62,140 bases of DNA, taken from assembly GCA_004293815.1 (NCBI GenBank), contig RDZD01000016.1:1-62140 (forward strand). Direction: 5' to 3'. The position numbers and the translations under genes are program-made. Below, in pieces: positions 16,601 through 48,616 of the stretch. The notes below the pieces were generated by a model, which was not told the origin of the DNA, searched no databases, and saw nothing but the letters and a program-made list of their open reading frames with translations. Origin of the DNA: Cytophagales bacterium. GTDB taxonomy: Bacteria; Bacteroidota; Bacteroidia; Cytophagales; Bernardetiaceae. Within the stretch, counting starts at the first letter, position 1, and every line of letters begins with the position of its first letter.

Positions 16601-19600
16601 CACCATTAGCGGCATCACAGCAAGTCCAGTGACTCTTACGGTGGGCAGTGCAGGCATTTATCAAATTAGTGCACTATCTAGTGTGGTTGGGTGTACAGCA
16701 TCGGCCTCTGCGCTCACGGACAGTGCTAGAATTCAAGTTATTCCTGTGCCCAATGTGGTGCTAACCTCTAATGACTTTGATAACAAAATTTGTAGGGATC
16801 AAGGTATCAAATTTACAGCCACAGGAGCAGCTTTTTACCGATTCTTCATCAATGGGGTTTTGATGCAAGAAGGCACCTCGGCCAACTACACGCCTCCCGT
16901 AGGCATACTCAACACGGGAGACTTAGTTTGGGCTACAGGAGTTAATCCCCCTACCGACTGTGGAGATACGAGCAATGTTATTACCATGACTGTAAACCGC
17001 ATTCCTGTTACGTCTATTGGTGTTTCACCTCGTGAACTCTGTCCAGGCGGTGACTCTCTCAAGCTCACCTCCACGCTGGTAGGAGCTACTGGCGCATTCA
17101 CTTATGATTGGCGCAAAATTGTTGGCAGTACAGCTGTGCCGGTGGGTACAGGCAAAGCCACTTTGTCGGTGATAGATACTGGACGATATTTTTTGATTAT
17201 TACAGAAAACTTAATAACGGGCTGCCAATATAGAACAGATACCATCAAAGTCAACTTCAAAGCCCCACCTGTGCTCAACGTGCGCGATACAGTAGTGTGT
17301 ATGGATAACCGTCCAGCTATTTTGGTGGCGCAAGACTTGACGCACGGCTCTGCTATCACCTACCAATGGTTTAACACCGCCAACCCAACAGCAGTGATTG
17401 GCACAGCTGGAACTTTGGCCGTAAATTCAGCAGGTTTGTATAGGGTCATTATACGCGACACACTCACGGGCTGCACAAGAACCGACCTTGCTCGTGTTGA
17501 CTTTAACCCAAATCCTGACTTTGAAATTAAAGGGCACGATAAACCGCTTTGTGAAGGGCGTGACACACTTACTTTAGATGCTTCTAACCTAGACAGCATG
17601 CAAATTGTGTGGGTAGGTGATGGACTCATTCAACTTGGAACTGATCAAAGAAGCCGAATTGTTACCAAAAGCGGTGTGGTTACGGTCATTGTTACAGACA
17701 CCTCAAAATCTACGCTCTGCCGTACTATCAAGTCCATTGACGTGATTATCAATGACAAACCCATTATCAATCCGAAATTGAAAGACTATGTAGTTTGTGA
17801 AGATACCACCTTGCGTATAGAAGCATTACATCCTACTCACGCCTCAAATGCAACCTATCAATGGCGCAATCTGACCAAAGGAACTGTAGCAGGCACAGAA
17901 TCTGCACTTGTTCTAAGCTTTGAGGAGGATTATAGTGAAAATATCTACGAAATACTTGTTACACACCCGAACTCTGGCTGTACAAGCCGCGATACAACAT
18001 CGATTAGATTCCAGAAAAAATCTAATGCTGAAATCAGTATTGAAAGAGGCCAATTGAAGCTTTGCGTGGGTGAAAGCGTCGTTTTGAGAGCTTCTGGAGG
18101 AACAGGCTATCTCTGGAACACAGGCGAAACGACCGAACTCATCAGTTTTAAGGCCATACAAAAGGGCTTTTTCCCAATTGTTTTGACGGGTGATTTTAAT
18201 ACCACTTGTGGACAAAGCAAAGACACTGTTGAAATTGAGGTCAGAGACCAACCCTTGGCTGCTATTCCCGATACACTCATAACAGTTTGTCAAACAACGC
18301 CTTTAGTCATAGATGCGGCTCTGCCTGAACATGATTTCTACACTCTTTACACTTGGACCAATCTGTCTAATGGCGAAACTCTGAGCAATCAATCCAAACT
18401 GGTTTTAACTTTCGACAGTTTGACAAGTCCAACCTTTGATCCTTTTCAAGTGGTTCTTCGCGTGCAAGATAGCTTGACGAACTGTTTTAGTCAGGATACT
18501 GTTGTGGTTAATTTTGAGCGAGGCAGTAAGGTTCAAATAGACAGCAATGCTGTACAAGAAGTTTGTCTAGGCGACAGTATCACACTTTCTGCCAGCGGCG
18601 CGGCGCGATATGTTTGGAATACTGGCGATACCACAGCCACCATCAAAGTTAAAGCAGAAGTGGCAGGCTTTATGACCTTTATCGTCAAAGCCGATGCCGC
18701 TAATCTATGTGCGAGTACTTCTGACACCTTGTTTGTTCGGGTGCGTCCGCTCCCGCGTATACAGGCTCATACACAAGATACCGTTAAAATCTGTGCTGAT
18801 GATTCTTTGACACTTTACCCCTCTGGTGGATTGTCCTACGAATGGCTTAACGATCCGCTTCTACGCGACACCATTACGGTAAGTCCCCAAAAGCCAACCA
18901 TGTACTACACCCTTGGTACTGATGCTTTTGGCTGTAAAAACTTGGACTCGGTATTTGTAGACGTATCGCCCACGATAGATTTAGGTCCTGACTTGATAGC
19001 TTGTCTGGGCGACACCTTAATCATAGGCCAAGTGAGCAGCGATAGCACCGCTACCTACAGCTGGTCGCCAAGTGGCCAACAGACACCCATTATTCAGGTA
19101 TGGAAGTCTGGCACTTATACCGTAAAGGTTCAAACCGCAGAATGCAGCTACAAGCGCAGTGTAAAGGTCAACTTTAAAGAAGAGCCTAAAATCCTGCTGG
19201 TACAAGACACTGTGTTTTGTTTTGACCCATGGCCTAACAGGGGCGTTGTGGAAAAAGAGCTGGGCAGTGCTTTGTTAAACCCTGATACTTCTGCTCGCTA
19301 CGTGTACGTTTGGACGGATTCTACTGGTGAGATTGTGGGCACAGAACCCGTTCTAAAAGTGAAGCAAGGCGGCAAGTACTACTTGAAAGTTGCAGCTCTT
19401 TATAGCGTTACTTGCGAAACCAATAGGGACGTGCAAATTGATGATGCTTGTCCGTCTAGAATCTTTGTACCAAATGCCTTCACGCCCAATAACGATGGGT
19501 TGAACGACTATTTTCAAGTATTTGGTGGTAACATCAAGTTCTTTGAGATGATGATATTCAACCGTTGGGGCGAAGTGGTCTACTTGAAAAGTACACAAGA

Positions 19601-19754
19601 CTTTGGCAGTATTCGAGGCGATGACTTCTGGAACGGTCAGTATAAAGGCAAAGATGTGATGGAAGGCAATTATGTGTATGTCATTAAGTACAACTCAGAA
19701 GACGATCTTTCTAAAATAGAAAAAGTGCAAGGCAGCTTTACACTTCTGCGCTAA
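13680..19754 (+). CDS. giant secreted surface protein/adhesin (2024 aa) with many Ig-like repeats and a T9SS type-B (gliding motility-associated) C-terminal sorting domain
   Basis: A signal peptide is followed by an N-terminal module with a CCWDHLYEQMPP motif that looks like an IgGFc-binding-protein-like domain. About 12-13 divergent ~95-aa repeats follow, each with a conserved Cys pair, for example FCDDDGAQTL...TGCTSKDSILVVF. The last ~90 aa (IFVPNAFTPNNDGLNDYFQVFG...FNRWGEVVY...GNYVYVIKY...GSFTLLR) match the TIGR04131-type CTD. Confidence 0.9.
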   Translation: MSLNTAMNSKIYSPHTQKITYLLFYTLLLGLFSLLGLSKVQAQCSKTTEGTEFWLGFADARDGTDEELSITVTSRVGATVSVFGGASSTLLATFIVPAGGSVKTVVPELWENETSEIIEDKGIRVECTAACNVYALSYQRNSADATLIYPTTTLGDKYYIMSYAQATNLTNTQVRNSEFVIVATQDATSITIIPNKITTALKPANVPFSITLNKGQSYQVKSGEFSGAGTALPAGQGDLTGSKVTSSKPIAVFGANIATVVPNINTCCWDHLYEQMPPTAVWGKEYITVPYKTRLWDVFRVLARIDGTVVSIDGAPVATLNEGQFYEFNTTGSNFPKVITGTNPIMVMHFSTSTNADAVSEADPFMINLSPTEQSVEDITFVAFTSTVITAYYLNILTETSNVPNMRLDGVLIAPTSFTAVPGTVFSRAQLNLTPGTHRLTNSGSGRGFTANIYGYGPFESYGYAAGVNLTPQLNFLFGSSSVDNDAEDFCDSEGAQTFVAEYSVPGATLEYKWKNLTTGAIVSTTDAMTANVFSSTTDYELTIDDIGGSCSIKDTLRVIFYKVPTAEVKHADSTRNTYNFCLADGEQSFSGTHPDNAGLDIDYFWISMDSGDTLGTASSQTLPVQLGSFQYMLHTYNSSDTSKVCFDADTITLVYNTGLPVDIKHLGIVKDTVVFCDDDGAQTLDASHPSHTSVSYQWRDLTRDNDLGTASTQTANIFGQNTLYEVEVTNLLTGCTSKDSILVVFFAANVRSGGTVVSDTFRFCDDDGPRVLDAFDPLNGPTVEYQWKDLGTGTVVSSTSVLNAANFSDTTVYEIFLRDVVSTCEARDTIMVIFRPTPTAIVKLNGVSMSSYILCNGSGSVRLNGFAATNQHVRYQWRRNGTLISTDTAITVTDVSFGTFTYLLTTTDTVSNCVATDEIVITVYPRLSGRTTGSANICAGKTTTVTFTLAGSFPMNMTYSVKDITTGAVISTTTISGITASPVTLTVGSAGIYQISALSSVVGCTASASALTDSARIQVIPVPNVVLTSNDFDNKICRDQGIKFTATGAAFYRFFINGVLMQEGTSANYTPPVGILNTGDLVWATGVNPPTDCGDTSNVITMTVNRIPVTSIGVSPRELCPGGDSLKLTSTLVGATGAFTYDWRKIVGSTAVPVGTGKATLSVIDTGRYFLIITENLITGCQYRTDTIKVNFKAPPVLNVRDTVVCMDNRPAILVAQDLTHGSAITYQWFNTANPTAVIGTAGTLAVNSAGLYRVIIRDTLTGCTRTDLARVDFNPNPDFEIKGHDKPLCEGRDTLTLDASNLDSMQIVWVGDGLIQLGTDQRSRIVTKSGVVTVIVTDTSKSTLCRTIKSIDVIINDKPIINPKLKDYVVCEDTTLRIEALHPTHASNATYQWRNLTKGTVAGTESALVLSFEEDYSENIYEILVTHPNSGCTSRDTTSIRFQKKSNAEISIERGQLKLCVGESVVLRASGGTGYLWNTGETTELISFKAIQKGFFPIVLTGDFNTTCGQSKDTVEIEVRDQPLAAIPDTLITVCQTTPLVIDAALPEHDFYTLYTWTNLSNGETLSNQSKLVLTFDSLTSPTFDPFQVVLRVQDSLTNCFSQDTVVVNFERGSKVQIDSNAVQEVCLGDSITLSASGAARYVWNTGDTTATIKVKAEVAGFMTFIVKADAANLCASTSDTLFVRVRPLPRIQAHTQDTVKICADDSLTLYPSGGLSYEWLNDPLLRDTITVSPQKPTMYYTLGTDAFGCKNLDSVFVDVSPTIDLGPDLIACLGDTLIIGQVSSDSTATYSWSPSGQQTPIIQVWKSGTYTVKVQTAECSYKRSVKVNFKEEPKILLVQDTVFCFDPWPNRGVVEKELGSALLNPDTSARYVYVWTDSTGEIVGTEPVLKVKQGGKYYLKVAALYSVTCETNRDVQIDDACPSRIFVPNAFTPNNDGLNDYFQVFGGNIKFFEMMIFNRWGEVVYLKSTQDFGSIRGDDFWNGQYKGKDVMEGNYVYVIKYNSEDDLSKIEKVQGSFTLLR

Positions 19755-25112: not shown

Positions 25113-26501
25113 CTATTGTAAGCCGTGTTTTTCCAATCGCCTATAAAGAGACGCGCGAGTGAGTCCCAACACCTTTGCGGCCTTAGAGAGATTACCGCCG
25201 TGTTTTGAGAGTGCTTTTTGTATAACAATTTTTTCCACATTTTCAAGATTGAAGTCTGTGATATCCAACTCGCTAGCCTCGCTTTTTTGAAGTAAGAATA
25301 AAAAATCGCCAGCCGCTAACTCATCGCAGTCGCTCATAATGACGGCTCTTTCAATGGCGTGTTGCAGCTCACGCACATTACCTGGCCAGTGGTATTCTTG
25401 CATTTTTTTGAGAGCCTGCCCACTAAAGGTTTTCTCTTCCTGATTGTACTTTTGGCAATAGATTTTTATAAAGTGCTCTGCCAGAATGGGAATGTCTTCC
25501 ACACGCTCACGCAGAGCTGGCAAATGCAACTCCACAGTGTTGATTCTATACAACAGGTCTTGTCTAAACTCATTGTTTTGCACCATGTCATAAAGATGCA
25601 TATTGGTAGCACATACCAAGCGAATATCTACAGAAATGGGCTGATTTGAGCCTACACGCACCACTTTGCGCTGCTGAAGTGCCGTTAGAAGCTTAGACTG
25701 CAATGCCAGAGGCAAGTTACCAATTTCGTCTAAAAACAGCGTCCCTGTGTGAGCTGCTTCAAAACGACCTTCTCGGTCTTCTTTGGCATCTGTAAAAGAC
25801 CCTTTCTTATGCCCAAAAAGCTCACTCTCGAACAGCGTAGAGGTAATAGCCCCCATATCCACACTCACAAAAGACTTTGCATTCCGCAAAGACTGCTGGT
25901 GTATGGCCTTGGCTATAACTTCTTTACCAGTACCGTTTTCACCCAAAATAAGTATGTTCGCATCGGTGGCCGCCACTTTTTTGATGATTGTAAAGATATT
26001 TCTCATGGATTCGCTCTGGCCTATGATACAGTCCGAGCTTGAAAGTTCGGAACCAATCGGGCGTTTGCTTTTTTTCGTTTGCGGACTGCCTTGAGCTTCA
26101 TTGTCAGCGGCTTGCTCTGTCTGACGCGGTTGAGCAGCATTTTGAATGGTGGCCACTAGCTTATCATTTTGCCATGGCTTTAGCACAAAGTCTCGCGCAC
26201 CAATTTTGAGAGCTTTTACAGCCATTTCTACCTCGCCAAAGGCAGTTATCATCACCACATTAGCTTCAGGTTTTTGCTCCAAAATGTGCTCTAGCCAGTA
26301 AAATCCTTCTTTCCCGCTCGTAATATCTTCGCTGAAATTCATATCCAACAAAATGACATCATATTGCTGGTGATTGAGCAAAAAAGGGATTTTTTTTGGG
26401 TTTTTTTCAATAAAAATATTTTTTGCGTATTTTTTAAGCAAAAGCTTAAGAGCCAACAACACATCTTCGTTGTCATCAATTACAAGAATATTCTGAAGCA
26501 T
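25113..26501 (-). CDS. sigma-54-dependent Fis-family response regulator (NtrC-like: receiver + AAA+ + HTH)
   Basis: The receiver domain has a DMNF Asp pocket. The AAA+ core has GENGTGKE (Walker A), the GAFTGA-like ESELFGHKKGSFTDA motif and an arginine finger. A Fis-type HTH lies at the C-terminus. Confidence 0.9.
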   Translation of the reverse strand: MLQNILVIDDNEDVLLALKLLLKKYAKNIFIEKNPKKIPFLLNHQQYDVILLDMNFSEDITSGKEGFYWLEHILEQKPEANVVMITAFGEVEMAVKALKIGARDFVLKPWQNDKLVATIQNAAQPRQTEQAADNEAQGSPQTKKSKRPIGSELSSSDCIIGQSESMRNIFTIIKKVAATDANILILGENGTGKEVIAKAIHQQSLRNAKSFVSVDMGAITSTLFESELFGHKKGSFTDAKEDREGRFEAAHTGTLFLDEIGNLPLALQSKLLTALQQRKVVRVGSNQPISVDIRLVCATNMHLYDMVQNNEFRQDLLYRINTVELHLPALRERVEDIPILAEHFIKIYCQKYNQEEKTFSGQALKKMQEYHWPGNVRELQHAIERAVIMSDCDELAAGDFLFLLQKSEASELDITDFNLENVEKIVIQKALSKHGGNLSKAAKVLGLTRASLYRRLEKHGLQ

Positions 26502-28353: not shown

Positions 28354-28529
28354 GAATCTTAGAGACCTGTATGCTCAGTATGCATGAAATATTTTTGAGG
28401 CTAATTACTGCACAATAAATATTTAAACTTACATTTGCATTGCGATGATTTAAGCGAAAAAAGCCTCTTGTGTTTAAAAACAATATTGTTTTTTGAATAT
28501 CCTATTTTAGGTATTAGAATTTGTATAAG

Positions 28530-28904
28530 ATGGAACAAAAAAAACTTTTGATAGCTGAAGATAGTTCTGTGATTCAGAACGTGATGGCCAAGGTGCTCAA
28601 GTTTCAAAACTATGAGATAGATTATGCCAAAAACGGTGTGCAGGTACTCACAAAACTTGAAGGCAAAGATTTTGATGTTATTCTCATGGACATCAATATG
28701 CCCGAAATGGATGGGATGGTCTGTGCAAAAAAGATCAGAGCATTAGCCGCACCCCAGAAATCTACAATACCTATCATTGCCGTAACTGGAAATGCGCAAA
28801 ACTACAGCATAGAAGACTTTAAAGATGCTGGAATTACAGATTATTTACCCAAACCTATTGACTTTGACGTTCTTATCAATAAGCTAAACGAACTTTGGAA
28901 GTAG
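28530..28904 (+). CDS. stand-alone response-regulator receiver domain protein (CheY-like)
   Basis: The E-D acidic pair (AEDS), the phospho-acceptor Asp in VILMDINMPEMDG, T/S (AVTG) and K (LPKP) are all conserved. No output domain is present. Confidence 0.85.
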   Translation: MEQKKLLIAEDSSVIQNVMAKVLKFQNYEIDYAKNGVQVLTKLEGKDFDVILMDINMPEMDGMVCAKKIRALAAPQKSTIPIIAVTGNAQNYSIEDFKDAGITDYLPKPIDFDVLINKLNELWK

Positions 28905-39036: not shown

Positions 39037-40563
39037 ATGGACAGTTGGACTTATACAATCAAACAACTTTTTTTACTTCTCGCTTCGCTTTTAATAGCTT
39101 GCTTGGCTCAGGCTCAATCAGCAGAGGGCAACAAGCTAATTTTTTTAATCGGAAAACCCAAGAGTGATGCCAACTTGCAAAGCTTTATGCAAGCCTTAGG
39201 GACTCCCAGCCCTTCTTTGAGCACTCCCCAAGCTATGGTTTATCCTGACAAAGGTGTCAAGCTGATGTTTTATAAAGATCAGCTTTTATCTAAGATTTAT
39301 CTTTTTGGAAGCAGTTTTACTGTCAATGAAACTTCCTTTAAAGCCTATCAGGGCAAACTCCCTGAACGTGTGACGTTTATTGATACTAAAGAGACCCTCA
39401 TTCTCAAGCTCGGACTCCCATCCAATGAAAAACATAAAATGTTAGAGTACAACTACTCGTTGGCCACCATGCTGTTTGTGTTTAATGGCGACCAGCTTAA
39501 ATCTAGGCTCAGTTATGTAGAAATTCGCTTCAAAAACTGCGTTGAAGGCAACTGCCAAAGTGGGAGTGGAGTTTGGCTTGACATGGACGGAAGCCGCTAT
39601 GAGGGAGGTTGGCTCAACGGCAAACGGCACGGCGATGGCAAAATTACGCTGGCAAATGGGAAAATATATGAAGGTTATTGGGAAAATGGAAAGTTTAAAG
39701 GCAAAAACTTTTTTAAAACAAACAACCTCTACGACCTGTTAGGAAAACACAAAGACAGTAAGACAGTTATAGATCTCACACAAAGCCACAAAGACGGCTA
39801 CCAAAAATTCCAGATGGCTTTTGATTATATGCGCTATGCTTTTTCGCAGGATCGTTTGCTGCTTTATTTTGATGACTATGGCTTTCTATACAAAATTCAT
39901 ATCTTTAAAATAGGTTTCAAAGATTTTTCACATGCCCTCACCAACAAAATCAAGGTGGCAGGCGATATGAGCTACGTCCACTATGTGATGGGAAAGCCCG
40001 TGCGTGAAGAAAAATCTGGCTTTGGCACTCTCTGGTACTACCGCGAAGGCAGTTATGACTTACTTATTTATTTCAACACCCGCAAAGGCATAGAAAGTAT
40101 AGAAATTAAACTCAACGACGCTTATTCTGTGCTAGATCACTCCAAAGGCTTCTGTTTAAAAGGCGACTGCCAAAACGGTACAGGCGAGCAAGTAAGTGAG
40201 GTGGGTAAATATGTGGGTAAATTCAAAGATGGCAAGTTTTCAGGCGAGGGGACTCTCTATCTCAAATCAGGTGGGGTCTATACAGGCCAGTTCCTCAACA
40301 ATAAAAAACATGGATCAGGGTCTCAGAGATGGTCTGATCAGAGCTACTACAACGGCCAGTGGGTACACGGACACATACAAGGTGAAGGAGTGATGATTTA
40401 TGCTGACAAGAGCCGTTATGAGGGACAGTGGCTTGCCGATAAAAGACACGGTGTCGGCTCTATGCTTTATCCCAACGGCGATAAGTATGTGGGCATCTGG
40501 CGTAATAATGCTCCCTCTGGCGAAGGAAAAATGTACTATGCCAAACCCATAAAACAGCCATAG
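39037..40563 (+). CDS. secreted MORN-repeat protein
   Basis: A signal peptide is followed by two blocks of MORN repeats (YEGGWLNGKRHGDGKITLANGKIYEGYWENGKF, and later YTGQFLNNKKHGSGSQRW...YEGQWLADKRHGVGSMLYPNGDKYVGIW). A non-repeat insert separates the blocks. Confidence 0.75.
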   Translation: MDSWTYTIKQLFLLLASLLIACLAQAQSAEGNKLIFLIGKPKSDANLQSFMQALGTPSPSLSTPQAMVYPDKGVKLMFYKDQLLSKIYLFGSSFTVNETSFKAYQGKLPERVTFIDTKETLILKLGLPSNEKHKMLEYNYSLATMLFVFNGDQLKSRLSYVEIRFKNCVEGNCQSGSGVWLDMDGSRYEGGWLNGKRHGDGKITLANGKIYEGYWENGKFKGKNFFKTNNLYDLLGKHKDSKTVIDLTQSHKDGYQKFQMAFDYMRYAFSQDRLLLYFDDYGFLYKIHIFKIGFKDFSHALTNKIKVAGDMSYVHYVMGKPVREEKSGFGTLWYYREGSYDLLIYFNTRKGIESIEIKLNDAYSVLDHSKGFCLKGDCQNGTGEQVSEVGKYVGKFKDGKFSGEGTLYLKSGGVYTGQFLNNKKHGSGSQRWSDQSYYNGQWVHGHIQGEGVMIYADKSRYEGQWLADKRHGVGSMLYPNGDKYVGIWRNNAPSGEGKMYYAKPIKQP

Positions 40564-40808
40564 AGGCTCTTTTAGATTATTGTGAAGTCATGCACTTTTT
40601 TTTGAATGCTTTGAGGCGATTCTTTGGGTAAGGCTTAAAAAAACTGTATTGTTATAGTTTTAAATACCTCCATAAGTCACTGATTGATAATTATTGTGCG
40701 AATCTTTGCTATATTTTTCTACTGGATTCCTTGCTTTATCTTTTTTTTGTTATAATTTGGCAAAGTTTTAGAGTATGCTCTCTATATCATTTTATGTAAA
40801 AGCTATTA

Positions 40809-43235
40809 ATGCGTTTGGGTTGTAACATCGCTGCATTCTTAATAACTCTGTCTACTTGCCTCTTATATGTGCAGGTGGGACAGGCGCAACGTCTTTCTCC
40901 AAATAAATCCATTACACAATACGGTATTGTGAACTGGGGTGTAGACAAGGGCTTGCAATCTGCCTCTGTCTTGGACATAGCCCAAACCGTAGATGGGTTT
41001 TTATGGCTTGCCACATTCGACGGAGTAGTGCGCTTTGATGGTCATCGCTTTAAAACCTACAATAAGCAGAATACCCCAGCCTTTTTGACCAATGGCGTGC
41101 AGTGCCTGACTCAAGACCATTCAGGAACAATGTGGATGGGTCTGAAAGGTGGCGGACTTATTAAATACGAAAATGGAAAATTTAGAACTAATGCTAGTGA
41201 GACTCTAGCTACAGAAACCATTTTTTCTATTTATGAAGATTTTAATGAAGAAATGTGGTTCGGAACTTTTTCTGATGTCTTTAAAACAGACAAAGAAGAA
41301 GGTACCATCACGAAAGTGGGACATGAAATAGGAATTAACAGCGAGGTAAGAGCTTTTGCAAGAGACGAAGAAGGTAGACTTTGGATAGGAAGTACCCAAA
41401 ACGGTTTGGTGGCAGTGGACAAGGACTCCCTTGGCAAGCTTCGCGGCACACCTTATATGCAAGACCATAACATCACGGCACTTCATTATATGCCCTATAA
41501 TGGGCAACTCTGGATAGGGACTGACAAAGGGCTTTATACTATAAAAACAGTAAAAGATACCAATCCTCGCCCCTTTTTGTACAACGGAGAACCCATCTCA
41601 AGCGTTACCTGTATACACGAAGACCAAAACAGAACGCTTTGGATAGGTACAGAAAAAGGCATTTATAGACTTAGGCCCAACAGAACAGACTATATTGGAA
41701 AGAAAACAGGCTTGGCAGATGACTATGTGCGCAGTCTTTTTACAGACAATGAAGGCAACCTTTGGATGGGTACAGATATTGCCGGACTCATCCAAATAAA
41801 AGATGGTAAATTCCTGACCTTCGGTACACAAAATGGCCTTTTGGACGACATTGTCCATGCAACCTCACAAGATCTAGAAGGACGGGTATGGGTGGGTACA
41901 CAATCTGGTGTGAGTGTGCTGGATCCTCATCTTCGCACTGCCACCAACATAGATTTGAGCAAGTTCTTTAAAAACCTACAAATCAGAGATATTTATTGTC
42001 ACAATGACGGCAGAGTATGGATAGCCTCCTACGGCGATGGCCTTTTAGAAATGAAAGCAGGCGCAAAGCCTATTTTATACAATGCGACCAACTCTGGCCT
42101 CAAAGAGTGCTCTGTTAGGCGTTTGCTTTACACACCAGATGGCAAGCTTTACATGGGCACAAAACGAGGGCTTTTTGTACTAGAAGAAGGTGTCATTCAA
42201 AAAGTGGATTTGTCTCAAGCCAAATCTTCAGAATACGTCATGGATTTACGCTATAGTCCTCGTTATGGCATTATAGTCAGCACCAACAACGGTGGGGTAG
42301 TAATCATAAAAAATAATGAAATAAAAACGATTAAAGAAGAAGATGGTCTAGCTGGTTCGGTAGTTTATTGTGCTTTTGAGGACAGCGAAGGCGTACTTTG
42401 GTTTGGTACCAACAACGGCCTAACGCGCTTACAGAACGCCAATGCTGCACAAATTAACGCCACCAAAGGCTTGCCCGATGATATCATTTTCCAAATTGCT
42501 GAAGATATGGCAGGCAATCTTTGGATGACTTGCAAAAGAGGTATCTTCACCATCAAAAAAAGCGATGTGGTCAAGCTGGCTGTAAATCGCCTTGATAATG
42601 TTAAGTGTAGGCTTTATGACCACAATGATGGCCTTCGTAGCACTGAGATAACCGCCAATGGAAAAATCACAAAGCTCAATGATGGTAGACTGGCCTTTGC
42701 TACTCTTAAAGGCTTGGCATTCATACACCCAGACAGCATACCAACCAACTACAATCCGCCCCAAGTGTTCATCAACTCGCTTTTTCTGGACGGAGAAGAG
42801 ATAGAGGTAAACCGCCGTAAACGGATGGAAGTAAATGATGGGTTTGGCCGATTAACAATAGAGTTTTCTGCATTGAGCTTTGCAGCACCCTCAAAAGTTA
42901 AGTTCCGCTACAAGCTAGAACCCGTTGAGCGCGAGTGGGTAGAGATAGAAAATTTACGCCATATAGATTTTACAGGACTTTCGGGCGGGGAGTATGTGTT
43001 TAAATTACAGGCCTGTAACAACGACCAGATTTGGAACGAAGCTGGTAATTCTCTAGTGATTTATATAAAACCTGTATTTTATAAAGCTTTTTGGTTTAGA
43101 GGCTTAGTAGTAATGCTTTTAGGCTTTTTGATATTCTTCATCTGGCTTTATGGTTATAAAGTGGCCGTTTTCAAAGTCAAACGAAGCCTCATAAATGCCA
43201 AATGGTATATCAAAGAGCAACAAGATGAGGCTTAA
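40809..43235 (+). CDS. two-component-regulator propeller + Y_Y_Y domain protein (periplasmic sensor module with one TM helix; no kinase or output domain)
   Basis: A signal peptide is followed by repeated propeller blades (WIGTDKGLYTI, WIGTEKGIYRL, WMGTDIAGLIQI, WVGTQSGVSVL, WFGTNNGLTRL). The Y_Y_Y region (FRYKLEPVEREWVEI...GEYVFKLQACNNDQIWNE) is followed by a TM helix. The protein ends 28 residues after the TM helix. Confidence 0.75.
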   Translation: MRLGCNIAAFLITLSTCLLYVQVGQAQRLSPNKSITQYGIVNWGVDKGLQSASVLDIAQTVDGFLWLATFDGVVRFDGHRFKTYNKQNTPAFLTNGVQCLTQDHSGTMWMGLKGGGLIKYENGKFRTNASETLATETIFSIYEDFNEEMWFGTFSDVFKTDKEEGTITKVGHEIGINSEVRAFARDEEGRLWIGSTQNGLVAVDKDSLGKLRGTPYMQDHNITALHYMPYNGQLWIGTDKGLYTIKTVKDTNPRPFLYNGEPISSVTCIHEDQNRTLWIGTEKGIYRLRPNRTDYIGKKTGLADDYVRSLFTDNEGNLWMGTDIAGLIQIKDGKFLTFGTQNGLLDDIVHATSQDLEGRVWVGTQSGVSVLDPHLRTATNIDLSKFFKNLQIRDIYCHNDGRVWIASYGDGLLEMKAGAKPILYNATNSGLKECSVRRLLYTPDGKLYMGTKRGLFVLEEGVIQKVDLSQAKSSEYVMDLRYSPRYGIIVSTNNGGVVIIKNNEIKTIKEEDGLAGSVVYCAFEDSEGVLWFGTNNGLTRLQNANAAQINATKGLPDDIIFQIAEDMAGNLWMTCKRGIFTIKKSDVVKLAVNRLDNVKCRLYDHNDGLRSTEITANGKITKLNDGRLAFATLKGLAFIHPDSIPTNYNPPQVFINSLFLDGEEIEVNRRKRMEVNDGFGRLTIEFSALSFAAPSKVKFRYKLEPVEREWVEIENLRHIDFTGLSGGEYVFKLQACNNDQIWNEAGNSLVIYIKPVFYKAFWFRGLVVMLLGFLIFFIWLYGYKVAVFKVKRSLINAKWYIKEQQDEA

Positions 43236-43401
43236 ATCAAAAGAGCTTATTGCATTAGATTTGATATACGCTGCAAAGAGCTGCACCCCAAAATTGATAA
43301 TTGCTTTATGAGGCACCGCAAGTAAAACTTGTGCTTATCAGAAAAATATACCATATTCTACGTTGAGCCTATTAAGCTTTAGGCGTAAGTCTCTAAAAAT
43401 C

Positions 43402-43442
43402 TAAGCCCGTTCCCTAAAGTCTAGGTTTAGAGAACGGGCTTA
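43402..43442. terminator. ~18-bp imperfect hairpin (TAAGCCCGTTCCCTAAAG ... GTTTAGAGAACGGGCTTA) between convergent genes; terminator
   Basis: It lies 21 bp beyond the permease stop on the minus strand. On that strand a T-rich run (ATTTTTAGAG) follows it. It also lies 167 bp after the plus-strand propeller gene. Confidence 0.6.
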
Positions 43443-43462
43443 GTTCAAATAGCATATAGAGC

Positions 43463-44914
43463 TTACTTCTGCTCTATTTTGTTTAAATTACTGTGCCTTT
43501 GGCCATATACGAAATAGACCACCACACCAATCAAAAGCCAGCCTATGGCTAACATCTGTGCCAAGTAACTAAGTTTATAAATCAAAAATAGGTTAGTGCA
43601 TATACCCAGCGTGGCAATCACAGGTAGTGCTGGCACTCTAAATCCACGCTCTAAGTTTGGCTCACGCGAGCGCAAAATCCAAACTGCGCCACAAACCATA
43701 GCAAAAGCGAAGAGTGTACCAAAACTAGTCATGTCGCCCAAGACTGTAATAGGAGTGAAGGCAGCTACTAAAGACACCACAAAGCCTACCAAAATTGTAC
43801 TTTTGTACGGTGTTTTAAAATCTGCATGAATACTTTTAAAAAACTCTGGCAATAAGCCATCTTTAGCCATTCCCAAGAAAACACGCGTTTGACCTAGCAT
43901 CATGACGAGCATTACAGAAATAAGACCAGTGGTTGCTGCTGCTGTAATGATAAAAACTGCCCAAGGCATACCAGCTTTTTCAAAAGCCGCCGCCACTGGT
44001 GCTTTGAGCGCATCACCTACAATATCTTTATAGTTAATCATGCCAGTAAGAACCAAAGAAACAGCAATATAAAGAACGGTACATATCAACAGCGAAGTGA
44101 TAATGGCAAAAGGCATATCGCGTTTTGGGTTAATGGCCTCGCCTGCTTGCGTAGATACCGCATCAAAACCGATGTAGGCAAAGAAAATAGCCGCTGCGCC
44201 ACCAAAAATACCGCCTACTCCATAGGCAGTGTGCGGTGCACCGTTCTCGCCTGGTATTTCAATGGCCTCAGGAATGAAAGGAACCCAGTTAGCTGCATCT
44301 ACAGCAAAAGCACCTACAATGATGACAAATAATACAGCAGTTACTTTCAAAACCACAATGACATTGTTAGCACCCGCGGCCTCTTTGATACCTTTAACCA
44401 AAATGGCTGTTACAACCCAAACAATAACGAAAGCTGGTAAATTTAGAGCCATATCTCCATAGCTAAAAGGATCTGTAGTTAGAACCTTGGGTAGCTCTAC
44501 GCCAAACAACTTGAGTAGCTTATTGAAGTAGCCTGACCAACTCACTGCCACTGTCATAGCTCCCATGGCGTACTCTAAAATAAGCCCCCAGCCAATAATC
44601 CATGCAAAAAGCTCACCCACTGTCCCGTAGGCATAAGCATAAGCAGACCCCTCTACGGGTAACATAGAAGCAAACTCTGCATAGCAAAGTGCTGCAAAAA
44701 TACAGGCTATGCCCGCCACAACAAACGACAAGGCCAAGGCGGGGCCAGCATGATAATGCGCAGCTGTGCCCGTTAGTACAAAAATACCGCCGCCAATGAT
44801 AGCTCCTATCCCAATGGCGGTCAGGCTCCATTTACCAAGCACCCGTTGTAAGGTGCTCTTTTTCATGTCTTCTTCAAAAGCACTTATCGGCTTTTTTCTC
44901 CACATCATACTCAT
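43463..44914 (-). CDS. APC-superfamily amino acid permease
   Basis: It has twelve TM helices. The N-terminal TAIGIGAIIGGGIFVLTG signature and overall length fit amino acid/polyamine transporters. Confidence 0.9.
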   Translation of the reverse strand: MSMMWRKKPISAFEEDMKKSTLQRVLGKWSLTAIGIGAIIGGGIFVLTGTAAHYHAGPALALSFVVAGIACIFAALCYAEFASMLPVEGSAYAYAYGTVGELFAWIIGWGLILEYAMGAMTVAVSWSGYFNKLLKLFGVELPKVLTTDPFSYGDMALNLPAFVIVWVVTAILVKGIKEAAGANNVIVVLKVTAVLFVIIVGAFAVDAANWVPFIPEAIEIPGENGAPHTAYGVGGIFGGAAAIFFAYIGFDAVSTQAGEAINPKRDMPFAIITSLLICTVLYIAVSLVLTGMINYKDIVGDALKAPVAAAFEKAGMPWAVFIITAAATTGLISVMLVMMLGQTRVFLGMAKDGLLPEFFKSIHADFKTPYKSTILVGFVVSLVAAFTPITVLGDMTSFGTLFAFAMVCGAVWILRSREPNLERGFRVPALPVIATLGICTNLFLIYKLSYLAQMLAIGWLLIGVVVYFVYGQRHSNLNKIEQK

Positions 44915-45315
44915 AAACTATACATTTTTTGTTTAGGACAAGAGTAAAAATTTTTGAATCACCAAGAAATTGCCCAAAAACACTCTGTCAGGTTAGTTGT
45001 AGGGTTAAAAAAATCTGCATCAAACATAATGCTTTATTTATTGCAAAGCGTTTTTGAACAACTTTTTTTTTGGTAAAATCCTCTTTTTACCAACATTTAT
45101 TTTGCAATCGTTGCACTCAGCAACTAAAATCTCAGTATAATTTTGTATTAGTTCTCAAATTTTATTTAATTTACCCATTAACTGAGTGCAACTCTCTTGT
45201 TGTGTTTTTTGTCTTCATACCAAAATTGATTGCTCAATTTTTCGGAAAATATTTTACCACTCAGGCACTTACATACCATATTATTTTTGTCCTTATCTGT
45301 TTAAAACGACCCAAC

Positions 45316-45852
45316 ATGTTCAAATCATTCAGAATACCGACTGGACTCCTGCTTTTAATGCTAGTTTTTTCCACGTTTTGCTGTTCTCAAGTTGAACCAA
45401 ACGTATTTTCGGCTTGTTATAGGCCTGTTTACATGAAACTTGAGGAAGTAAAAACTATTCGTATGGAAGCACCCAAAGCGATGCTTTCTGCTGATAAGAT
45501 TTACTACAAAGACAACTACATATTCATCTGTGAAAGAAGCAAAGGAATTCATGTTTTGGATAACAAAGACCCTAAAAACCCTGTTCAAGTTTGCTTTTTG
45601 AGGATTCCTGGCAGTCAAGACGTGGCTATAAAAGGCAATATTTTGTATGCAGATAATTACAAAGATCTCGTATCCATAGATATCAGTAATATCAAGGAAC
45701 CTAAAGTACTCAGCAGAACGGAGAATGTATTCAATGTACCACAGTACCCTCCGCACGGCAATGTAAAATTTGAGTGCCCTAATCCCCAAAAAGGAATACT
45801 TGTAGGTTGGGAAGAAATCCCTTTAAACAGCAAAGTGGATTGTTTCCGTTAA
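45316..45852 (+). CDS. LVIVD-repeat lipoprotein (2 repeats)
   Basis: A signal peptide with Cys (FSTFCCSQ) is followed by two LVIVD-type repeats (YIFICERSKGIHVLDNKDPKNP, ILYADNYKDLVSIDISNIKEPK). Confidence 0.6.
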   Translation: MFKSFRIPTGLLLLMLVFSTFCCSQVEPNVFSACYRPVYMKLEEVKTIRMEAPKAMLSADKIYYKDNYIFICERSKGIHVLDNKDPKNPVQVCFLRIPGSQDVAIKGNILYADNYKDLVSIDISNIKEPKVLSRTENVFNVPQYPPHGNVKFECPNPQKGILVGWEEIPLNSKVDCFR

Positions 45853-45908
45853 AAAAGTCTTGAAGTCAATTTTTAAAAAATTTATACTCAATAAATCTCT
45901 AAAAAAAC

Positions 45909-46697
45909 ATGAACTCATTCATAAAAAACATCAGAGCAACGGTCATGTTGGCCTTTCTACTAGGCTCATTGGCAGCTTGCGATTCGCAAGGAGAAGGAGA
46001 CTACATGAGCCCACCTGAGCGAAGCGACAACACAGGAGAAGCTGGCTCTATGGCGCGTTTTGGCCTTTCTGGCAACCAGCTTTATGTAGTTGGCAATGAC
46101 AATCTTAGATATTTTGATATCAGTGATCCCCGAAAACCTGTTTTTCAAAATACTATCAATCTTCCTGATGGTGTAGAAACTATTTTTCCTTATGGTAATC
46201 ATTTATTTCTGGGTACTATGAATGGGGTTATTATCATGAATATATCCAACCCTTTGGCTCCCATTATATCAAGCACATATAGCCATGTCACGTCTTGTGA
46301 CCCTGTGGTGGTGCAAAATAACTATGCCTATGTAACCATGCGCAACGGTACTGCTTGTAACCGAGGTATCAATCGCTTAGAGGTGTTAGATGTCGGCGCG
46401 CCTTGGGAACCATCTATGATAAATAGCATGGCGATGATTAACCCACACGGTTTGGGTGTTGAGGGGTCTCAACTCTTTGTTTGCGAGGGTGCTTCAGGTC
46501 TAAAGGCATTTGATATATCTACTCCTTACAAGCCTAAGATGGTTCAATTATTAAATGGCTTTGATGCCTTTGACTTGATTGTGGACAATGGTCTTTTGAT
46601 GGTTATAGGCAAAACAGGGCTGATGCAGTTTCAATACGACACAAGCCCTCAAGCACCCAATATGCGTTTGGTAAGCCGTATCAACATTGGTTCTTAA
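45909..46697 (+). CDS. LVIVD-repeat lipoprotein (about 4 repeats)
   Basis: A lipobox (LGSLAACD) is followed by four LVIVD-type repeats (LYVVGNDNLRYFDISDPRKP, LFLGTMNGVIIMNISNPLAP, AYVTMRNG...LEVLDVGAPWEP, LFVCEGASGLKAFDISTPYKP). Confidence 0.65.
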   Translation: MNSFIKNIRATVMLAFLLGSLAACDSQGEGDYMSPPERSDNTGEAGSMARFGLSGNQLYVVGNDNLRYFDISDPRKPVFQNTINLPDGVETIFPYGNHLFLGTMNGVIIMNISNPLAPIISSTYSHVTSCDPVVVQNNYAYVTMRNGTACNRGINRLEVLDVGAPWEPSMINSMAMINPHGLGVEGSQLFVCEGASGLKAFDISTPYKPKMVQLLNGFDAFDLIVDNGLLMVIGKTGLMQFQYDTSPQAPNMRLVSRINIGS

Positions 46698-46716
46698 AAA
46701 TAATTTCCTAGATTTT

Positions 46717-47439
46717 ATGAAAAAAATTGCTAATATTTTAACGTGTATTGCTCTGGTTTGTGGGTTTGTTTACGAGAATGCACAGGCCAGTGTGGGTGAT
46801 TCTACAGCCAAAGACAGCACTGGCGTTGCAAAAATAGTGTCAGGAAAGAACCTGCGAGCCATTCTATTTGTGTCTCCTATGGCTCATTTAAATTCTCGAA
46901 GCCCTGCAGTATTGCAGATAGGTGTGGAAAGACCTATAAGCAAATACGGTTCTTTGCTTTTTGAGGCGGGTTTTCTGCGGGGCAATAGCCGCATGCGCCG
47001 TTATGATACACATGTTAAGTATGGTGCTAGGCTCAGGGCGGAGTCACGCACATATATGCAGCCTATTCACGTCAAACAGCGCAGATGTAGATCTTTTTTA
47101 GGTTTAGACATGACTTTCAAGCACATGCGTCTTAATGACTGGGACGAAATTGTACCGGTAGAATCTGACCCTGACAGACTTGGCCATGAATACTTAATGA
47201 CCGTCTGGACGAGAGACTATGACACTCTTTTAGCTTTAGCATTTAAGCAAGGTGTACAGTATCAGTTCGATACGCAATTGCCTATTTTCCGAAATTTGGC
47301 GGTTGATTTTGAATGGGGGTTGGGAGCAGCCTATTTCTTTAATGGCTCAAAGCGAGGTTTTGGGCTTTTTAGAGATGCTGAGAATAAATCAGTACTTTAC
47401 GGCTCACTTGAGTTCAGAATAGGTTATATCCTTCGGTAG
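46717..47439 (+). CDS. hypothetical secreted protein, possible small outer-membrane beta-barrel
   Basis: A signal peptide is followed by alternating hydrophobic strands. The C-terminus ends in an aromatic-rich strand (LEFRIGYILR). The OMP assignment is tentative. Confidence 0.35.
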   Translation: MKKIANILTCIALVCGFVYENAQASVGDSTAKDSTGVAKIVSGKNLRAILFVSPMAHLNSRSPAVLQIGVERPISKYGSLLFEAGFLRGNSRMRRYDTHVKYGARLRAESRTYMQPIHVKQRRCRSFLGLDMTFKHMRLNDWDEIVPVESDPDRLGHEYLMTVWTRDYDTLLALAFKQGVQYQFDTQLPIFRNLAVDFEWGLGAAYFFNGSKRGFGLFRDAENKSVLYGSLEFRIGYILR

Positions 47440-47734
47440 TAGAGTGTTGTAGCAATCAAGGAGTCTATCCTACACCCAATGAGTCTGCTGATACACCTCA
47501 ATAACTGGTGGATTTTGGCAATCTTTCTATTGCAGCAGACTCTTGGTGTGAGAAGAGTAAAAAAATAATGCTTCGCTAATTTCTTTTTTGATATTCGGCA
47601 TCAATATTGCCCTTATTGATGCAAGAAATCCCATGTCCGCTAAGCTACTCACAATAACACATTTTACCAAAAATAAAAACCAAACAATGTTTAAGAACAG
47701 CAGCATATCTTATACATTTCAACAAATCAAAACC

Positions 47735-48616
47735 ATGCAACTATCTAGATTTTATTGGTTAGGACTCTTGTCGCTGTTTTTAGGCGGCTGGTATCTGGTG
47801 TTTTCTTATGCGTCGCCGCAGCCTAGCCAGACACCATATTTAGATCTCCAAACCGAAAAAAATATAGATGCTTACTTTTTGAGTGAAAATCCTCTTTCGC
47901 CACTCCAGAGTTTAGCAGCCGTGCCACAAAGAACAATGGCACTTCTCCAAACAAAAAAAGACCGCTACATTCGCTCTCAAATCAACACCCAAAATACAGA
48001 TATTTCTGATTTTGAGGCAGCTCAAAAGTTAGGCGTGTGTGCAGTAGCATGGGCGTATGCCGTTCATTATGAGCGCAGTCCTGAGAAGGAGGCCTATTTA
48101 GTTGCGGCAGAGCAGTACGCACAGCAGCTCAATTTTGCTAGCTATACCACCAATGAGCCTTCTCTAGTGGCCTCACTCAAAGATTCCCAAAATAGAAAAA
48201 ATCTCTTTTCAGCAGCTATAGACCAACTAGAAATGGTGGCTTTTCAGCTCAAAAAAGAAAAAAGAGAATATCTTTGTGCAGATGTATTGGCTGGTGCTTG
48301 GTTAGAACTTGCTTACCTACAAGTGGGTGCATACGTGTCTAGACCCAATGAGGGCATGAGACAAGAAATTATTGCCCAACAGTATGTGTTGGACGACCTA
48401 ATTTTTGCTTTGGAGCCTTATCGCGAACAACAGCATCATGGTGAGCTACTTAAAACATTAGAAAATCTCCTCAAGCTTTATCGCTCTATACCACCCCTGC
48501 CAGCTGGCTGGGAGAGTGCATCTAGCAGCAAACCTAAGCTAAACTTACAGACGGATCGCCAAATAAAAATCATATTTGATGAGTTGGTTAGTTACAGAGT
48601 AAAATGGCATTTCTAA
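47735..48616 (+). CDS. hypothetical membrane-anchored/secreted alpha-helical protein
   Basis: There is a signal peptide or anchor (MQLSRFYWLGLLSLFLGGWYLVFSYA). Alternative upstream starts lie at 47687 and 47588. Confidence 0.4.
   Translation: MQLSRFYWLGLLSLFLGGWYLVFSYASPQPSQTPYLDLQTEKNIDAYFLSENPLSPLQSLAAVPQRTMALLQTKKDRYIRSQINTQNTDISDFEAAQKLGVCAVAWAYAVHYERSPEKEAYLVAAEQYAQQLNFASYTTNEPSLVASLKDSQNRKNLFSAAIDQLEMVAFQLKKEKREYLCADVLAGAWLELAYLQVGAYVSRPNEGMRQEIIAQQYVLDDLIFALEPYREQQHHGELLKTLENLLKLYRSIPPLPAGWESASSSKPKLNLQTDRQIKIIFDELVSYRVKWHF

What the first reader, a model, noticed from the sequence alone, without database searches (positions are those of the whole stretch)
40809..43235. Sensor-type propeller/Y_Y_Y protein that ends right after its transmembrane helix
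The signal peptide, beta-propeller repeats and Y_Y_Y domain are the periplasmic input module of Bacteroidota hybrid two-component systems and of some AraC or LuxR one-component regulators. Here the protein terminates 28 residues after the single TM helix. It has no HisKA/HATPase and no DNA-binding output. A strong hairpin terminator and a convergent permease gene follow. It is either a decoy or co-sensor acting through a partner, or a recently truncated sensor.
Basis: partly seen in the sequence, partly recalled or inferred. Interest (0 to 1): 0.5.

Follow-up and report, generated by a model that had tools for sequence, protein, structure and literature searches.

The report
Conserved sensor protein without an output
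This gene encodes a membrane-anchored copy of a well-known bacterial sensor module that lost its signalling half long ago and has been kept intact since, so it is a small real protein family whose partner or role is still unknown, not a broken gene.

Summary
ORF 40809-43235 (+) encodes 808 aa: a signal peptide, 14 Reg_prop blades forming two 7-bladed propellers, a Y_Y_Y domain, one TM helix and a 25-aa tail. It has no output domain, and there is no room or frame for one downstream. The "recent truncation" and "sequencing error" readings are refuted. The identical gene occurs in four independent assemblies. Orthologues with the same short architecture exist at 72%, 40% and 37% identity, in different gene neighbourhoods. 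In a distance tree these short proteins form one clade (100/100 bootstraps) among 86 full-length relatives. Synonymous sites are saturated while pN is 0.19. The architecture is rare: 0 of 75 3'-complete metagenomic relatives end this early. Within the clade the periplasmic module is conserved. The motifs that full-length sensors keep at the membrane junction and in the juxtamembrane helix have decayed, and the tail is the least conserved part. So the function sits in the periplasm and the helix is mainly an anchor. The most likely role is a kinase-less accessory receptor that binds a periplasmic ligand and acts on a separately encoded partner. A non-signalling binding or scaffold role is the main rival. 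No partner is identifiable from gene context. Interest is moderate: a new variant of a known kind.

The parts
40564..40808 (+). 245-bp upstream intergenic region; presumed own promoter (not identified)
   Evidence: The gene is separated from the upstream MORN-repeat gene, which ends at 40563. No TAnnTTTG motif was found. Sigma-70-like matches do not exceed the shuffled expectation.
40809..40886 (+). Signal peptide, residues 1-26 (MRLGCNIAAFLITLSTCLLYVQVGQA | QR)
   Evidence: N-terminal hydrophobic segment. Helix 2-23 in the model. All four clade members end this segment with A-Q or G-Q. It is the least conserved region, at 12-32% identity.
40896..41828 (+). First seven-bladed Reg_prop beta-propeller, about residues 30-340 (boundary approximate)
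   Evidence: Pfam Reg_prop. 28 strands in the model. Foldseek match to BT4663 and BT3049 periplasmic domains.
41829..42743 (+). Second seven-bladed Reg_prop beta-propeller, about residues 341-645
   Evidence: Pfam Reg_prop. Strands 29-56 in the model. Foldseek match.
42744..43076 (+). Y_Y_Y beta-sandwich domain, about residues 646-756
   Evidence: PF07495, E 2.4e-14, residues 691-754. Strands 652-754 in the model.
43089..43157 (+). Single transmembrane helix, about residues 761-783 (FWFRGLVVMLLGFLIFFIWLYGY)
   Evidence: Hydropathy maximum of 2.3 at 760-778. Helix 761-807 in the model. Homologous to the TM helix of full-length sensors, but the junction motif has decayed and there is a 4-residue insertion.
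43158..43235 (+). 25-residue cytoplasmic tail (KVAVFKVKRSLINAKWYIKEQQDEA) plus TAA stop; remnant of the start of the signalling helix
   Evidence: It aligns with the first ~25 residues after the TM helix of full-length relatives, but it lacks their R786 and R804. Tail identity between subclades is 10-24%. The stop is identical in four assemblies.
43401..43443 (-). 18-bp-stem hairpin followed by a T-run on the minus strand; terminator of the convergent permease, possibly acting in both directions
   Evidence: Terminator scan: 18 pairs, 8 GC, tail ATTTTTAG on the minus strand. Sequence read directly.

Best explanation
What it is (shown). The gene encodes a member of a small, old, output-less clade of the Reg_prop/Y_Y_Y sensor superfamily. 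The protein is exported by a cleavable signal peptide and held on the periplasmic face of the inner membrane by one C-terminal helix. It displays the same module (two 7-bladed propellers plus Y_Y_Y) that serves as the ligand-binding input of BT4663-type hybrid kinases, classical kinases, Ser/Thr kinases, diguanylate cyclases and BguR-type one-component regulators. The cytoplasmic transmitter was lost once, in the ancestor of the clade. The remainder has been kept by purifying selection. How it works (inferred). It acts as a kinase-less accessory receptor, a bacterial counterpart of plant receptor-like proteins or of accessory proteins such as YycH/YycI. The propeller module binds a periplasmic ligand, probably a glycan or oligosaccharide. 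The ligand-bound or ligand-free state is then read by a separately encoded membrane signalling protein, through periplasmic or intramembrane contacts. The 25-residue tail is not the signalling element. It and the junction motifs have drifted, so the helix serves mainly as an anchor that keeps the module at the membrane.
For: Architecture. Fold: Foldseek top hits are BT4663 (4a2l/4a2m) and BT3049 (3v9f), TM-score 0.74-0.83, E 1e-42 to 1e-48; sequence hits to the same entries are at E about 1e-50. Real stop codon: the identical 808-aa gene occurs on four contigs from independent runs, with 0-1 mismatches over 2899 nt. Conserved short architecture: P0002 (810 aa, 72%), P0003 (814 aa, 40%), and the P0121/P0300 cluster (803-804 aa, 37%; 7 member sequences, five of them 803-804 aa) all end 25-35 aa after the TM helix. 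Single origin: the five short proteins are monophyletic in 100/100 NJ bootstraps among 86 full-length relatives. Selection: pN 0.19 against pS 0.78 (saturated) versus P0002; all 33 superfamily-invariant columns are retained. Rarity: 0 of 75 3'-complete metagenomic relatives, and none of the other relatives sampled from genomes that reach the Y_Y_Y domain, end within 60 aa of it. Function lies in the periplasm: identity between subclades is 36-45% in the propellers and Y_Y_Y but 10-24% in the tail. The motifs kept by 87-96% of full-length relatives (P-x-F-Y-Q-T-x-W-F-Y, R786, E803-R804) are largely lost. Signalling context in one subclade: in L019/L020 the short gene is followed 153 bp downstream, on the same strand, by a 2-TM HAMP-GAF-PAS protein. 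Precedent: the module is dimeric in BT4663 and signals by moving its membrane-proximal ends (PMC5121618, PMC8534201). Membrane accessory proteins are known to modulate kinases through their TM regions (PMC8534201).
Against: No partner is identified. Neighbours are not conserved between the window, L001 and L019. The window has no histidine kinase or paralogue; it has only a lone receiver gene and an NtrC-type regulator 12-15 kb away. Decay of the junction and juxtamembrane motifs fits a protein that no longer signals at all equally well. The HAMP-GAF-PAS neighbour is confined to one subclade and itself has no catalytic output. Ligand binding and dimerisation were not tested.
Confidence: 0.45

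Rival explanations
1. It is a non-signalling periplasmic protein. The double-propeller/Y_Y_Y fold has been recruited as a membrane-anchored binding, scaffold or hand-over module for an envelope polymer. This would resemble PorZ, which uses the same fold to deliver anionic LPS in type IX secretion. No regulatory partner would be involved.
For: The transmembrane-signalling motifs have decayed, and the tail is the least conserved part. There are no conserved signalling neighbours. The best NCBIfam match is PorZ, E 3.7e-30, which shows that the fold has a documented non-signalling use (PMC5121618, PMC8545088). The organism has type IX secretion cargo: a CHU_C-tailed 2024-aa protein at 13680-19754. 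In L001 the convergent neighbour is a Glycos_transf_4 envelope enzyme.
Against: The protein is far closer in sequence and fold to true sensors than to PorZ: TM-score 0.74-0.83 against 0.30, and 105 bits against a PorZ cut-off of 260. In one subclade it sits directly upstream of a HAMP-GAF-PAS transducer gene. The Y_Y_Y-to-TM geometry and the W762/F763 junction residues are still kept in most members.
Confidence: 0.3
2. It is a decoy or dominant-negative receptor. It would form inactive heterodimers with a full-length paralogue, or titrate that paralogue's ligand, and so damp its signalling.
For: The sensory module of this family is dimeric (PMC5121618). A transmitter-less subunit in a dimer is a classic dominant-negative design. 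The periplasmic module is conserved.
Against: No full-length protein above 35% identity appeared among the best 120 hits of the word-index search of 5.8 billion clusters, nor above the short clade among the best 150 of the exhaustive profile search of 1.84 billion representatives. A matched full-length partner with a compatible interface is therefore not evident. There is no paralogue in the window. The clade has persisted through divergence to 37% identity without a recognisable co-diverging full-length sister. Pure ligand titration is not excluded.
Confidence: 0.12
3. It is a recently truncated sensor, a decaying pseudogene fragment of a histidine kinase.
For: The tail aligns with the start of the signalling helix of full-length relatives, so the family did arise by loss of the transmitter.
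Against: The same architecture is found at 72%, 40% and 37% identity in different genomic contexts. The clade is monophyletic. Selection is strongly purifying, with saturated synonymous sites. There is no kinase remnant downstream: the 227-bp spacer has stops in all frames and is followed by an intact convergent gene.
Confidence: 0.02
4. A sequencing or assembly error (indel or chimeric join) hides a downstream kinase ORF.
For: None was found.
Against: Four contigs from independent runs and MAGs carry the identical gene and spacer, with 0 and 1 mismatches in 2899 nt. Alternative frames near the 3' end are closed. Orthologues end at the same place.
Confidence: 0.01

Closest known systems
Periplasmic sensor domain of Bacteroides thetaiotaomicron hybrid two-component systems BT4663 (PDB 4A2L/4A2M) and BT3049 (3V9F)
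   Same: Signal peptide, two seven-bladed Reg_prop propellers, a Y_Y_Y domain, then a single TM helix. TM-score 0.74-0.83 and sequence E about 1e-50.
   Different: Only about 21% identity. BT4663 continues into HisKA, HATPase, receiver and AraC domains, whereas this protein stops 25 residues after the membrane. It is not next to a polysaccharide utilisation locus.
Full-length Reg_prop/Y_Y_Y sensors with HisKA_3/HATPase, Ser/Thr kinase, GGDEF or SpoIIE outputs (nearest sequence relatives; where named by a source, mostly Acidobacteriota)
   Same: 30-35% identity over the whole periplasmic module and the TM helix. All 33 invariant columns are shared.
   Different: They keep the P-x-F-Y-Q-T-x-W-F-Y junction, R786 and the E-R of the signalling helix, plus 200-600 further residues of output. 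The short clade has lost these.
BguR-type membrane-spanning one-component regulators (bioRxiv 10.64898/2026.01.10.698779)
   Same: The same sensor module and a single TM helix, with phosphorelay domains missing. This shows the module can work with minimal cytoplasmic parts.
   Different: BguR (940 aa) keeps a helical linker and a GerE DNA-binding domain. This protein has no DNA-binding domain.
PorZ, the type IX secretion A-LPS delivery protein (PDB 5M11; NF052228)
   Same: Two seven-bladed propellers followed by a beta-sandwich domain. It is a non-signalling use of the fold (PMC5121618, PMC8545088).
   Different: The match scores 105 bits against a cut-off of 260, and TM-score is 0.30. PorZ has a T9SS C-terminal domain, is monomeric and sits at the cell surface. 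This protein has a TM anchor and no CTD.
Membrane-anchored accessory proteins of two-component kinases (YycH/YycI, SafA, MzrA-type) and, as a concept, plant receptor-like proteins and animal decoy receptors
   Same: An extracytoplasmic domain, a single TM helix and a negligible cytoplasmic part. These proteins act only through a partner (PMC8534201 for the bacterial cases; the plant and animal comparison rests on my own knowledge).
   Different: There is no sequence or fold relationship. No partner is known here. This is a comparison of how it may work, not of family membership.

Membership tests
Reg_prop/Y_Y_Y periplasmic sensor module (BT4663 type) | Fourteen Reg_prop repeats forming two seven-bladed beta-propellers | tested here: met
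   PF07494 at E 4e-51. 56 strands, i.e. 14 blades, in a pLDDT 91.5 model. Foldseek TM-score 0.74-0.83 to 4a2l/3v9f.
Reg_prop/Y_Y_Y periplasmic sensor module (BT4663 type) | Membrane-proximal Y_Y_Y beta-sandwich followed by a single TM helix, with an N-terminal signal peptide | tested here: met
   PF07495 at E 2.4e-14. Two hydrophobic segments only. Helix 761-807 in the model.
Reg_prop/Y_Y_Y periplasmic sensor module (BT4663 type) | Homodimer that binds a ligand on the propeller entry faces | not testable with these tools
   Only monomer prediction was available, and there is no binding assay.
Hybrid two-component system / sensor histidine kinase | Cytoplasmic HisKA (or HisKA_3) and HATPase_c domains | tested here: not met
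   No such Pfam hit at E<=1. The protein ends 25 aa after the TM helix, and there is no downstream ORF.
Hybrid two-component system / sensor histidine kinase | Conserved junction and juxtamembrane signalling-helix motifs (P-x-F-Y-Q-T-x-W-F-Y; R786; E803-R804) | tested here: not met
   These are present in 87-96% of 76 full-length relatives. In the window protein Q759, T760, Y764, R786 and R804 are replaced.
Membrane-spanning one-component regulators (BguR/LuxR or AraC type) | Cytoplasmic GerE or AraC helix-turn-helix domain | tested here: not met
   No HTH family in Pfam or NCBIfam. The BguR architecture is described.
PorZ (T9SS A-LPS delivery protein, NF052228) | Score above the equivalog cut-off, and a T9SS C-terminal sorting domain | tested here: not met
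   105 bits against a cut-off of 260. No Por_Secre_tail or CHU_C hit. Foldseek TM-score 0.30 to 5m11.
C-terminal sorting signals (PEP-CTERM, GlyGly-CTERM and similar: motif + TM + short basic tail) | Match to a sorting-signal model, with the signal not homologous to a sensor TM segment | tested here: not met
   No NCBIfam sorting-signal family at E<=1. The TM helix and tail align column by column with the TM helix and signalling helix of full-length sensors.
Pseudogene / recent truncation | Architecture unique to one genome, relaxed selection, remnants of the lost part downstream | tested here: not met
   The same architecture occurs in 4 lineages. The clade is monophyletic at 100/100. pN is 0.19 against pS 0.78. 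No remnants are present.
Output-less Reg_prop/Y_Y_Y clade (defined here) | A full sensor module plus TM helix, ending 25-35 aa after the membrane, and grouping with P0002/P0003/P0121 | tested here: met

The most novel reading that the evidence does not exclude
The clade may be a bacterial equivalent of kinase-less 'receptor-like proteins'. Under this reading it is a complete double-propeller ligand receptor that signals only by engaging a separately encoded, sensor-less transducer in the membrane. One candidate is the HAMP-GAF-PAS protein encoded next to it in one subclade. That would define a split-receptor mode for the very large Reg_prop/Y_Y_Y sensor superfamily.
Probability: 0.35. Interest if true: 0.6.

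Novelty: new variant of a known kind. Interest (0 to 1): 0.38.

Why it matters
The Reg_prop/Y_Y_Y module is one of the most widespread extracytoplasmic sensor inputs in bacteria; the profile search found about 145,000 representative clusters. In every studied case it is fused to its output. A clade that has kept the whole input, threw away the output once, and then stayed under selection shows that the module can be useful on its own. If it works through a partner, it offers a clean natural system to ask how this receptor passes information sideways in the membrane. It would also warn annotators that proteins labelled 'ligand-binding sensor domain-containing protein' are not all autonomous sensors. 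If it is non-signalling, it is a second case after PorZ of this sensor fold being recruited for envelope biology. Either way it is a modest, testable lead and not a major surprise.

Tried and rejected
1. A kinase remnant or frameshift downstream was rejected. The 227-bp spacer has stops in all frames, alternative frames near the 3' end are closed, and the next gene is an intact convergent permease.

2. A paralogue or kinase inside the 62-kb window was sought. phmmer with 57 full-length relatives found only the gene itself, a lone receiver (28521-28904) and an NtrC-type regulator (25113-26501).

3. Conserved gene neighbourhood was sought. There is none between the window, L001 and L019, so no partner could be inferred.

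4. The scan of 185,579 species genomes returned only one close relative (L005, the same locus as L001). The other 13 loci were distant. All of those that reach the Y_Y_Y domain continue into further cytoplasmic sequence.

5. The metagenome scan returned 80 loci, all at or below 35% identity, with no new clade member. I used them as a sample of architectures instead.

6. The second word-index search, run with the four-sequence profile, found no new short members. It did not return P0121, although P0121 was part of the query.

7. A C-terminal sorting signal was rejected.

8. PorZ membership was rejected.

9. The literature searches found no paper describing an output-less, TM-anchored Reg_prop/Y_Y_Y protein. 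One search on 'Reg_prop/Y_Y_Y' was swamped by unrelated 'YYY' hits. The BT4663 structure paper (PMC3358863) is not held, so its mechanism is cited through PMC5121618 and PMC8534201.

10. A search for a Bacteroidota -7 promoter motif (TAnnTTTG) in the upstream spacer found none.
Full report
**Observation**

The ORF at 40809-43235 on the plus strand encodes 808 residues, from the first start codon of its open frame to a TAA stop. Pfam finds Reg_prop (E 4e-51, nine scored stretches) and Y_Y_Y (residues 691-754, E 2.4e-14). It finds no kinase, receiver, DNA-binding, cyclase or phosphatase domain, even at E<=1. Hydropathy shows two hydrophobic segments only, the N-terminal 25 residues and residues 757-788.

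An AlphaFold2 model built on 79 sequences is confident (pLDDT 91.5, pTM 0.85). It shows 56 strands, i.e. fourteen four-stranded blades, then a beta-sandwich at 652-754, then one continuous helix at 761-807. Foldseek places the model next to the periplasmic domains of BT4663 (4A2L/4A2M) and BT3049 (3V9F), with TM-scores of 0.74-0.83. Sequence search of the PDB gives the same entries at E about 1e-50.

The protein ends 25 residues after the helix. Downstream there are 227 bp with stops in every forward frame. An intact, convergent amino-acid permease gene follows.

One detail needs correcting. The 18-bp-stem hairpin at 43401-43443 is followed by a T-run on the minus strand only, so it is first of all the permease's terminator.

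**Is it a broken gene?**

No. The identical 808-residue product is recorded for two NCBI MAGs (Cytophagales bacterium, locus tags EAZ57_05270 and EAZ67_06310) and on contigs assembled from two independent sequencing runs. The gene and both flanking spacers differ at 0 and 1 of 2899 positions. That excludes an indel error.

A search of 5.8 billion protein clusters returned two further proteins with the same short architecture:

- P0002: 810 aa, 72% identity, from Cytophagales MAG GCA_013299045.1.
- P0003: 814 aa, 40% identity.

An exhaustive profile search of 1.84 billion representatives added P0121, 803 aa and 37% identical. Its 90% cluster has seven member sequences, five of them 803-804 aa, and includes P0300, which lies on contigs of up to 203 kb. 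All of these end 25-35 residues after the TM helix.

In P0002's genome the next gene is a convergent glycosyltransferase only 69 bp away. In P0300's contig the next gene is on the same strand but unrelated to a kinase. The short form therefore recurs in different contexts.

In a neighbour-joining tree of the periplasmic region (728 columns, 91 sequences), the five short proteins are monophyletic in 100 of 100 bootstrap replicates among their 86 closest full-length relatives. Between the window gene and P0002's gene, synonymous sites are saturated (pS 0.78) while pN is 0.19. All 33 columns that are invariant in the 79-sequence alignment are retained.

The transmitter was therefore lost once, long ago, and the remainder has been maintained by selection.

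**How unusual is the architecture?**

The superfamily is very large: 144,851 representative clusters at E<=0.001. Samples of relatives gave the following.

- Of 80 relatives fetched from metagenomes, 75 are complete at the 3' end. None ends within 60 residues of the Y_Y_Y domain. Five have short tails of 61-130 residues, and the other 70 carry 131 or more further residues.
- Among the 13 other relatives fetched from species genomes, every one that reaches the Y_Y_Y domain continues into further cytoplasmic sequence.
- Among the best 150 representatives, only the clade members are complete and output-less. P0204 (781 aa) stops before its TM helix and looks cut by a contig end.

**Where does the constraint lie?**

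Between subclades, identity is 36-45% in both propellers and in Y_Y_Y. It is 18-41% in the TM helix and 10-24% in the tail.

The 76 full-length relatives keep three sets of motifs:

- a junction motif P-x-F-Y-Q-T-x-W-F-Y (87-96% per position);
- an arginine two to three residues into the cytoplasm (R786, 96%);
- the E-R of the signalling helix (E803 and R804, 91-92%).

In the window protein Q759, T760, Y764, R786 and R804 are replaced. The other clade members are similarly degenerate. TM length also varies: the window protein and P0002 have a four-residue insertion, and P0121 has a shorter helix.

The tail still aligns with the first turns of the signalling helix, so it is a remnant of it. It is not a new motif, and it is not a C-terminal sorting signal; no such NCBIfam family matches. 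What is conserved is therefore the periplasmic module. The elements that transmit a signal through the membrane in full-length relatives have been released from constraint.

**Context**

The window's neighbours are as follows:

- upstream: a secreted MORN-repeat protein, a TatA gene, GatA and a universal stress protein;
- downstream: the permease, LVIVD-repeat proteins and housekeeping genes.

There is no kinase and no Reg_prop paralogue anywhere in the 62 kb. There is a lone receiver gene at 28521-28904 and an NtrC-type regulator at 25113-26501. None of the flanking genes is shared with P0002's or P0300's loci.

The only suggestive neighbour is in the P0300 subclade. A 657-residue protein is encoded 153 bp downstream on the same strand. 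It has two TM helices and HAMP, GAF and PAS domains, and it also lacks a catalytic output. It has no counterpart in the window.

**Mechanism**

Shown: the protein is an inner-membrane-anchored, periplasm-facing copy of a ligand-binding sensor module, without an output, and it is conserved.

From the literature: in BT4663 this module is a dimer, binds disaccharide on the propeller entry faces and switches between bound and unbound conformations. Y_Y_Y acts as a spacer and dimerisation element next to the membrane (PMC5121618). The movement has been described as scissor-like (PMC8534201). The same module can drive a bare DNA-binding domain without any phosphorelay (BguR). Membrane accessory proteins are known to modulate kinases through TM contacts (PMC8534201).

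Inferred: the most likely role is a kinase-less accessory receptor whose ligand state is read by a separately encoded membrane partner, through periplasmic or intramembrane contacts and not through the drifting tail. I put this at about 0.45.

The main rival, at about 0.3, is that signalling has been abandoned altogether and the fold serves as an anchored binding or scaffold module. PorZ is a precedent for such a use (PMC5121618, PMC8545088). However, this protein is clearly not PorZ: it scores 105 bits against a cut-off of 260, its TM-score to PorZ is 0.30, and it has no T9SS C-terminal domain.

A dominant-negative decoy, at about 0.12, is weakened because no full-length relative above 35% identity appeared among the best 120 hits of the word-index search, nor above the short clade in the exhaustive profile search. 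Recent truncation and sequencing error are refuted.

**Comparison and novelty**

The protein is a member of the Reg_prop/Y_Y_Y sensor superfamily by every sequence and fold criterion I could test. It is not a hybrid two-component system, a histidine kinase, a BguR-type one-component regulator or PorZ, because a defining feature of each was tested and not met. It would work like the single-pass accessory proteins of two-component systems or, as a concept, like plant receptor-like proteins, but it is unrelated to them.

I found no paper describing an output-less, TM-anchored member of this superfamily. Source databases label relatives only as 'hypothetical protein' or 'ligand-binding sensor domain-containing protein'. 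I rate it a new variant of a known kind, with moderate interest (0.38). The architecture is rare, old and selected, which is more interesting than a pseudogene. But output-less sensor paralogues are not conceptually surprising, and no partner or ligand can be named from sequence alone.

Noticed in passing
window 43401-43443: The strong 18-bp-stem hairpin between the convergent genes is followed by a T-run only on the minus strand. It is therefore primarily the terminator of the permease gene (43463-44914, minus strand). The sensor-like gene has no canonical intrinsic terminator of its own within its 227-bp 3' spacer.
   Followed up: partly
Relatives P0161, P0142, P0231, P0242, P0180 (855-891 aa; not in the window): Several relatives carry, after the TM helix and a short coiled coil, a ~60-residue Cys-rich C-terminal mini-domain (LPICAxCKKIRDDxGYWxQ...HSxAxFSHGxCPxC). 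It has no Pfam family. It looks like an uncharacterised, probably zinc-binding, minimal output domain.
   Followed up: partly
L019 3949-5922 (also L020 3930-4901): Directly downstream of the short sensor gene in the P0300 subclade is a 657-aa protein with two TM helices, a ~180-aa periplasmic loop, and HAMP, GAF and PAS_4 domains, but no catalytic output. Two output-less signalling-type membrane proteins lie in tandem, which makes this a candidate partner pair.
   Followed up: partly
L015 5830-8454: A Cyclobacteriaceae relative of 875 aa ends about 110 residues after its TM helix, in a coiled coil and a DHp-like segment, with no HATPase domain. This is another reduced-output variant of the superfamily.
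   Followed up: no
window 39037-40563: Immediately upstream is a 508-aa secreted protein with a signal peptide and MORN repeats at both ends of two repeated ~150-aa units. This is unusual for a bacterial periplasmic or secreted protein. It is not conserved next to the orthologues.
   Followed up: no
window 13680-19754: A 2024-aa protein has an IgGFc_binding-like domain, Ig/PKD domains and a CHU_C type IX secretion signal. This shows that the organism is a T9SS-bearing Bacteroidota.
   Followed up: no
window 45070-46697: Two adjacent LVIVD-repeat (beta-propeller) lipoprotein-like genes lie downstream of the permease. Two ORFs with no family match follow at 46687-48616.
   Followed up: no
window 25113-26501 and 28521-28904: An NtrC-type sigma-54 activator with a receiver domain and a stand-alone 127-aa receiver protein lie 12-15 kb upstream. 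Neither has a cognate kinase gene within the window.
   Followed up: no
window 9029-10246 versus L001 1-1200: The only genes shared between the window and the P0002 contig, apart from the sensor-like gene, are a Methyltransf_21 gene pair (53% and 35% identity). They lie about 30 kb from the gene in the window and about 9 kb from it in L001, which points to extensive rearrangement around the gene.
   Followed up: no
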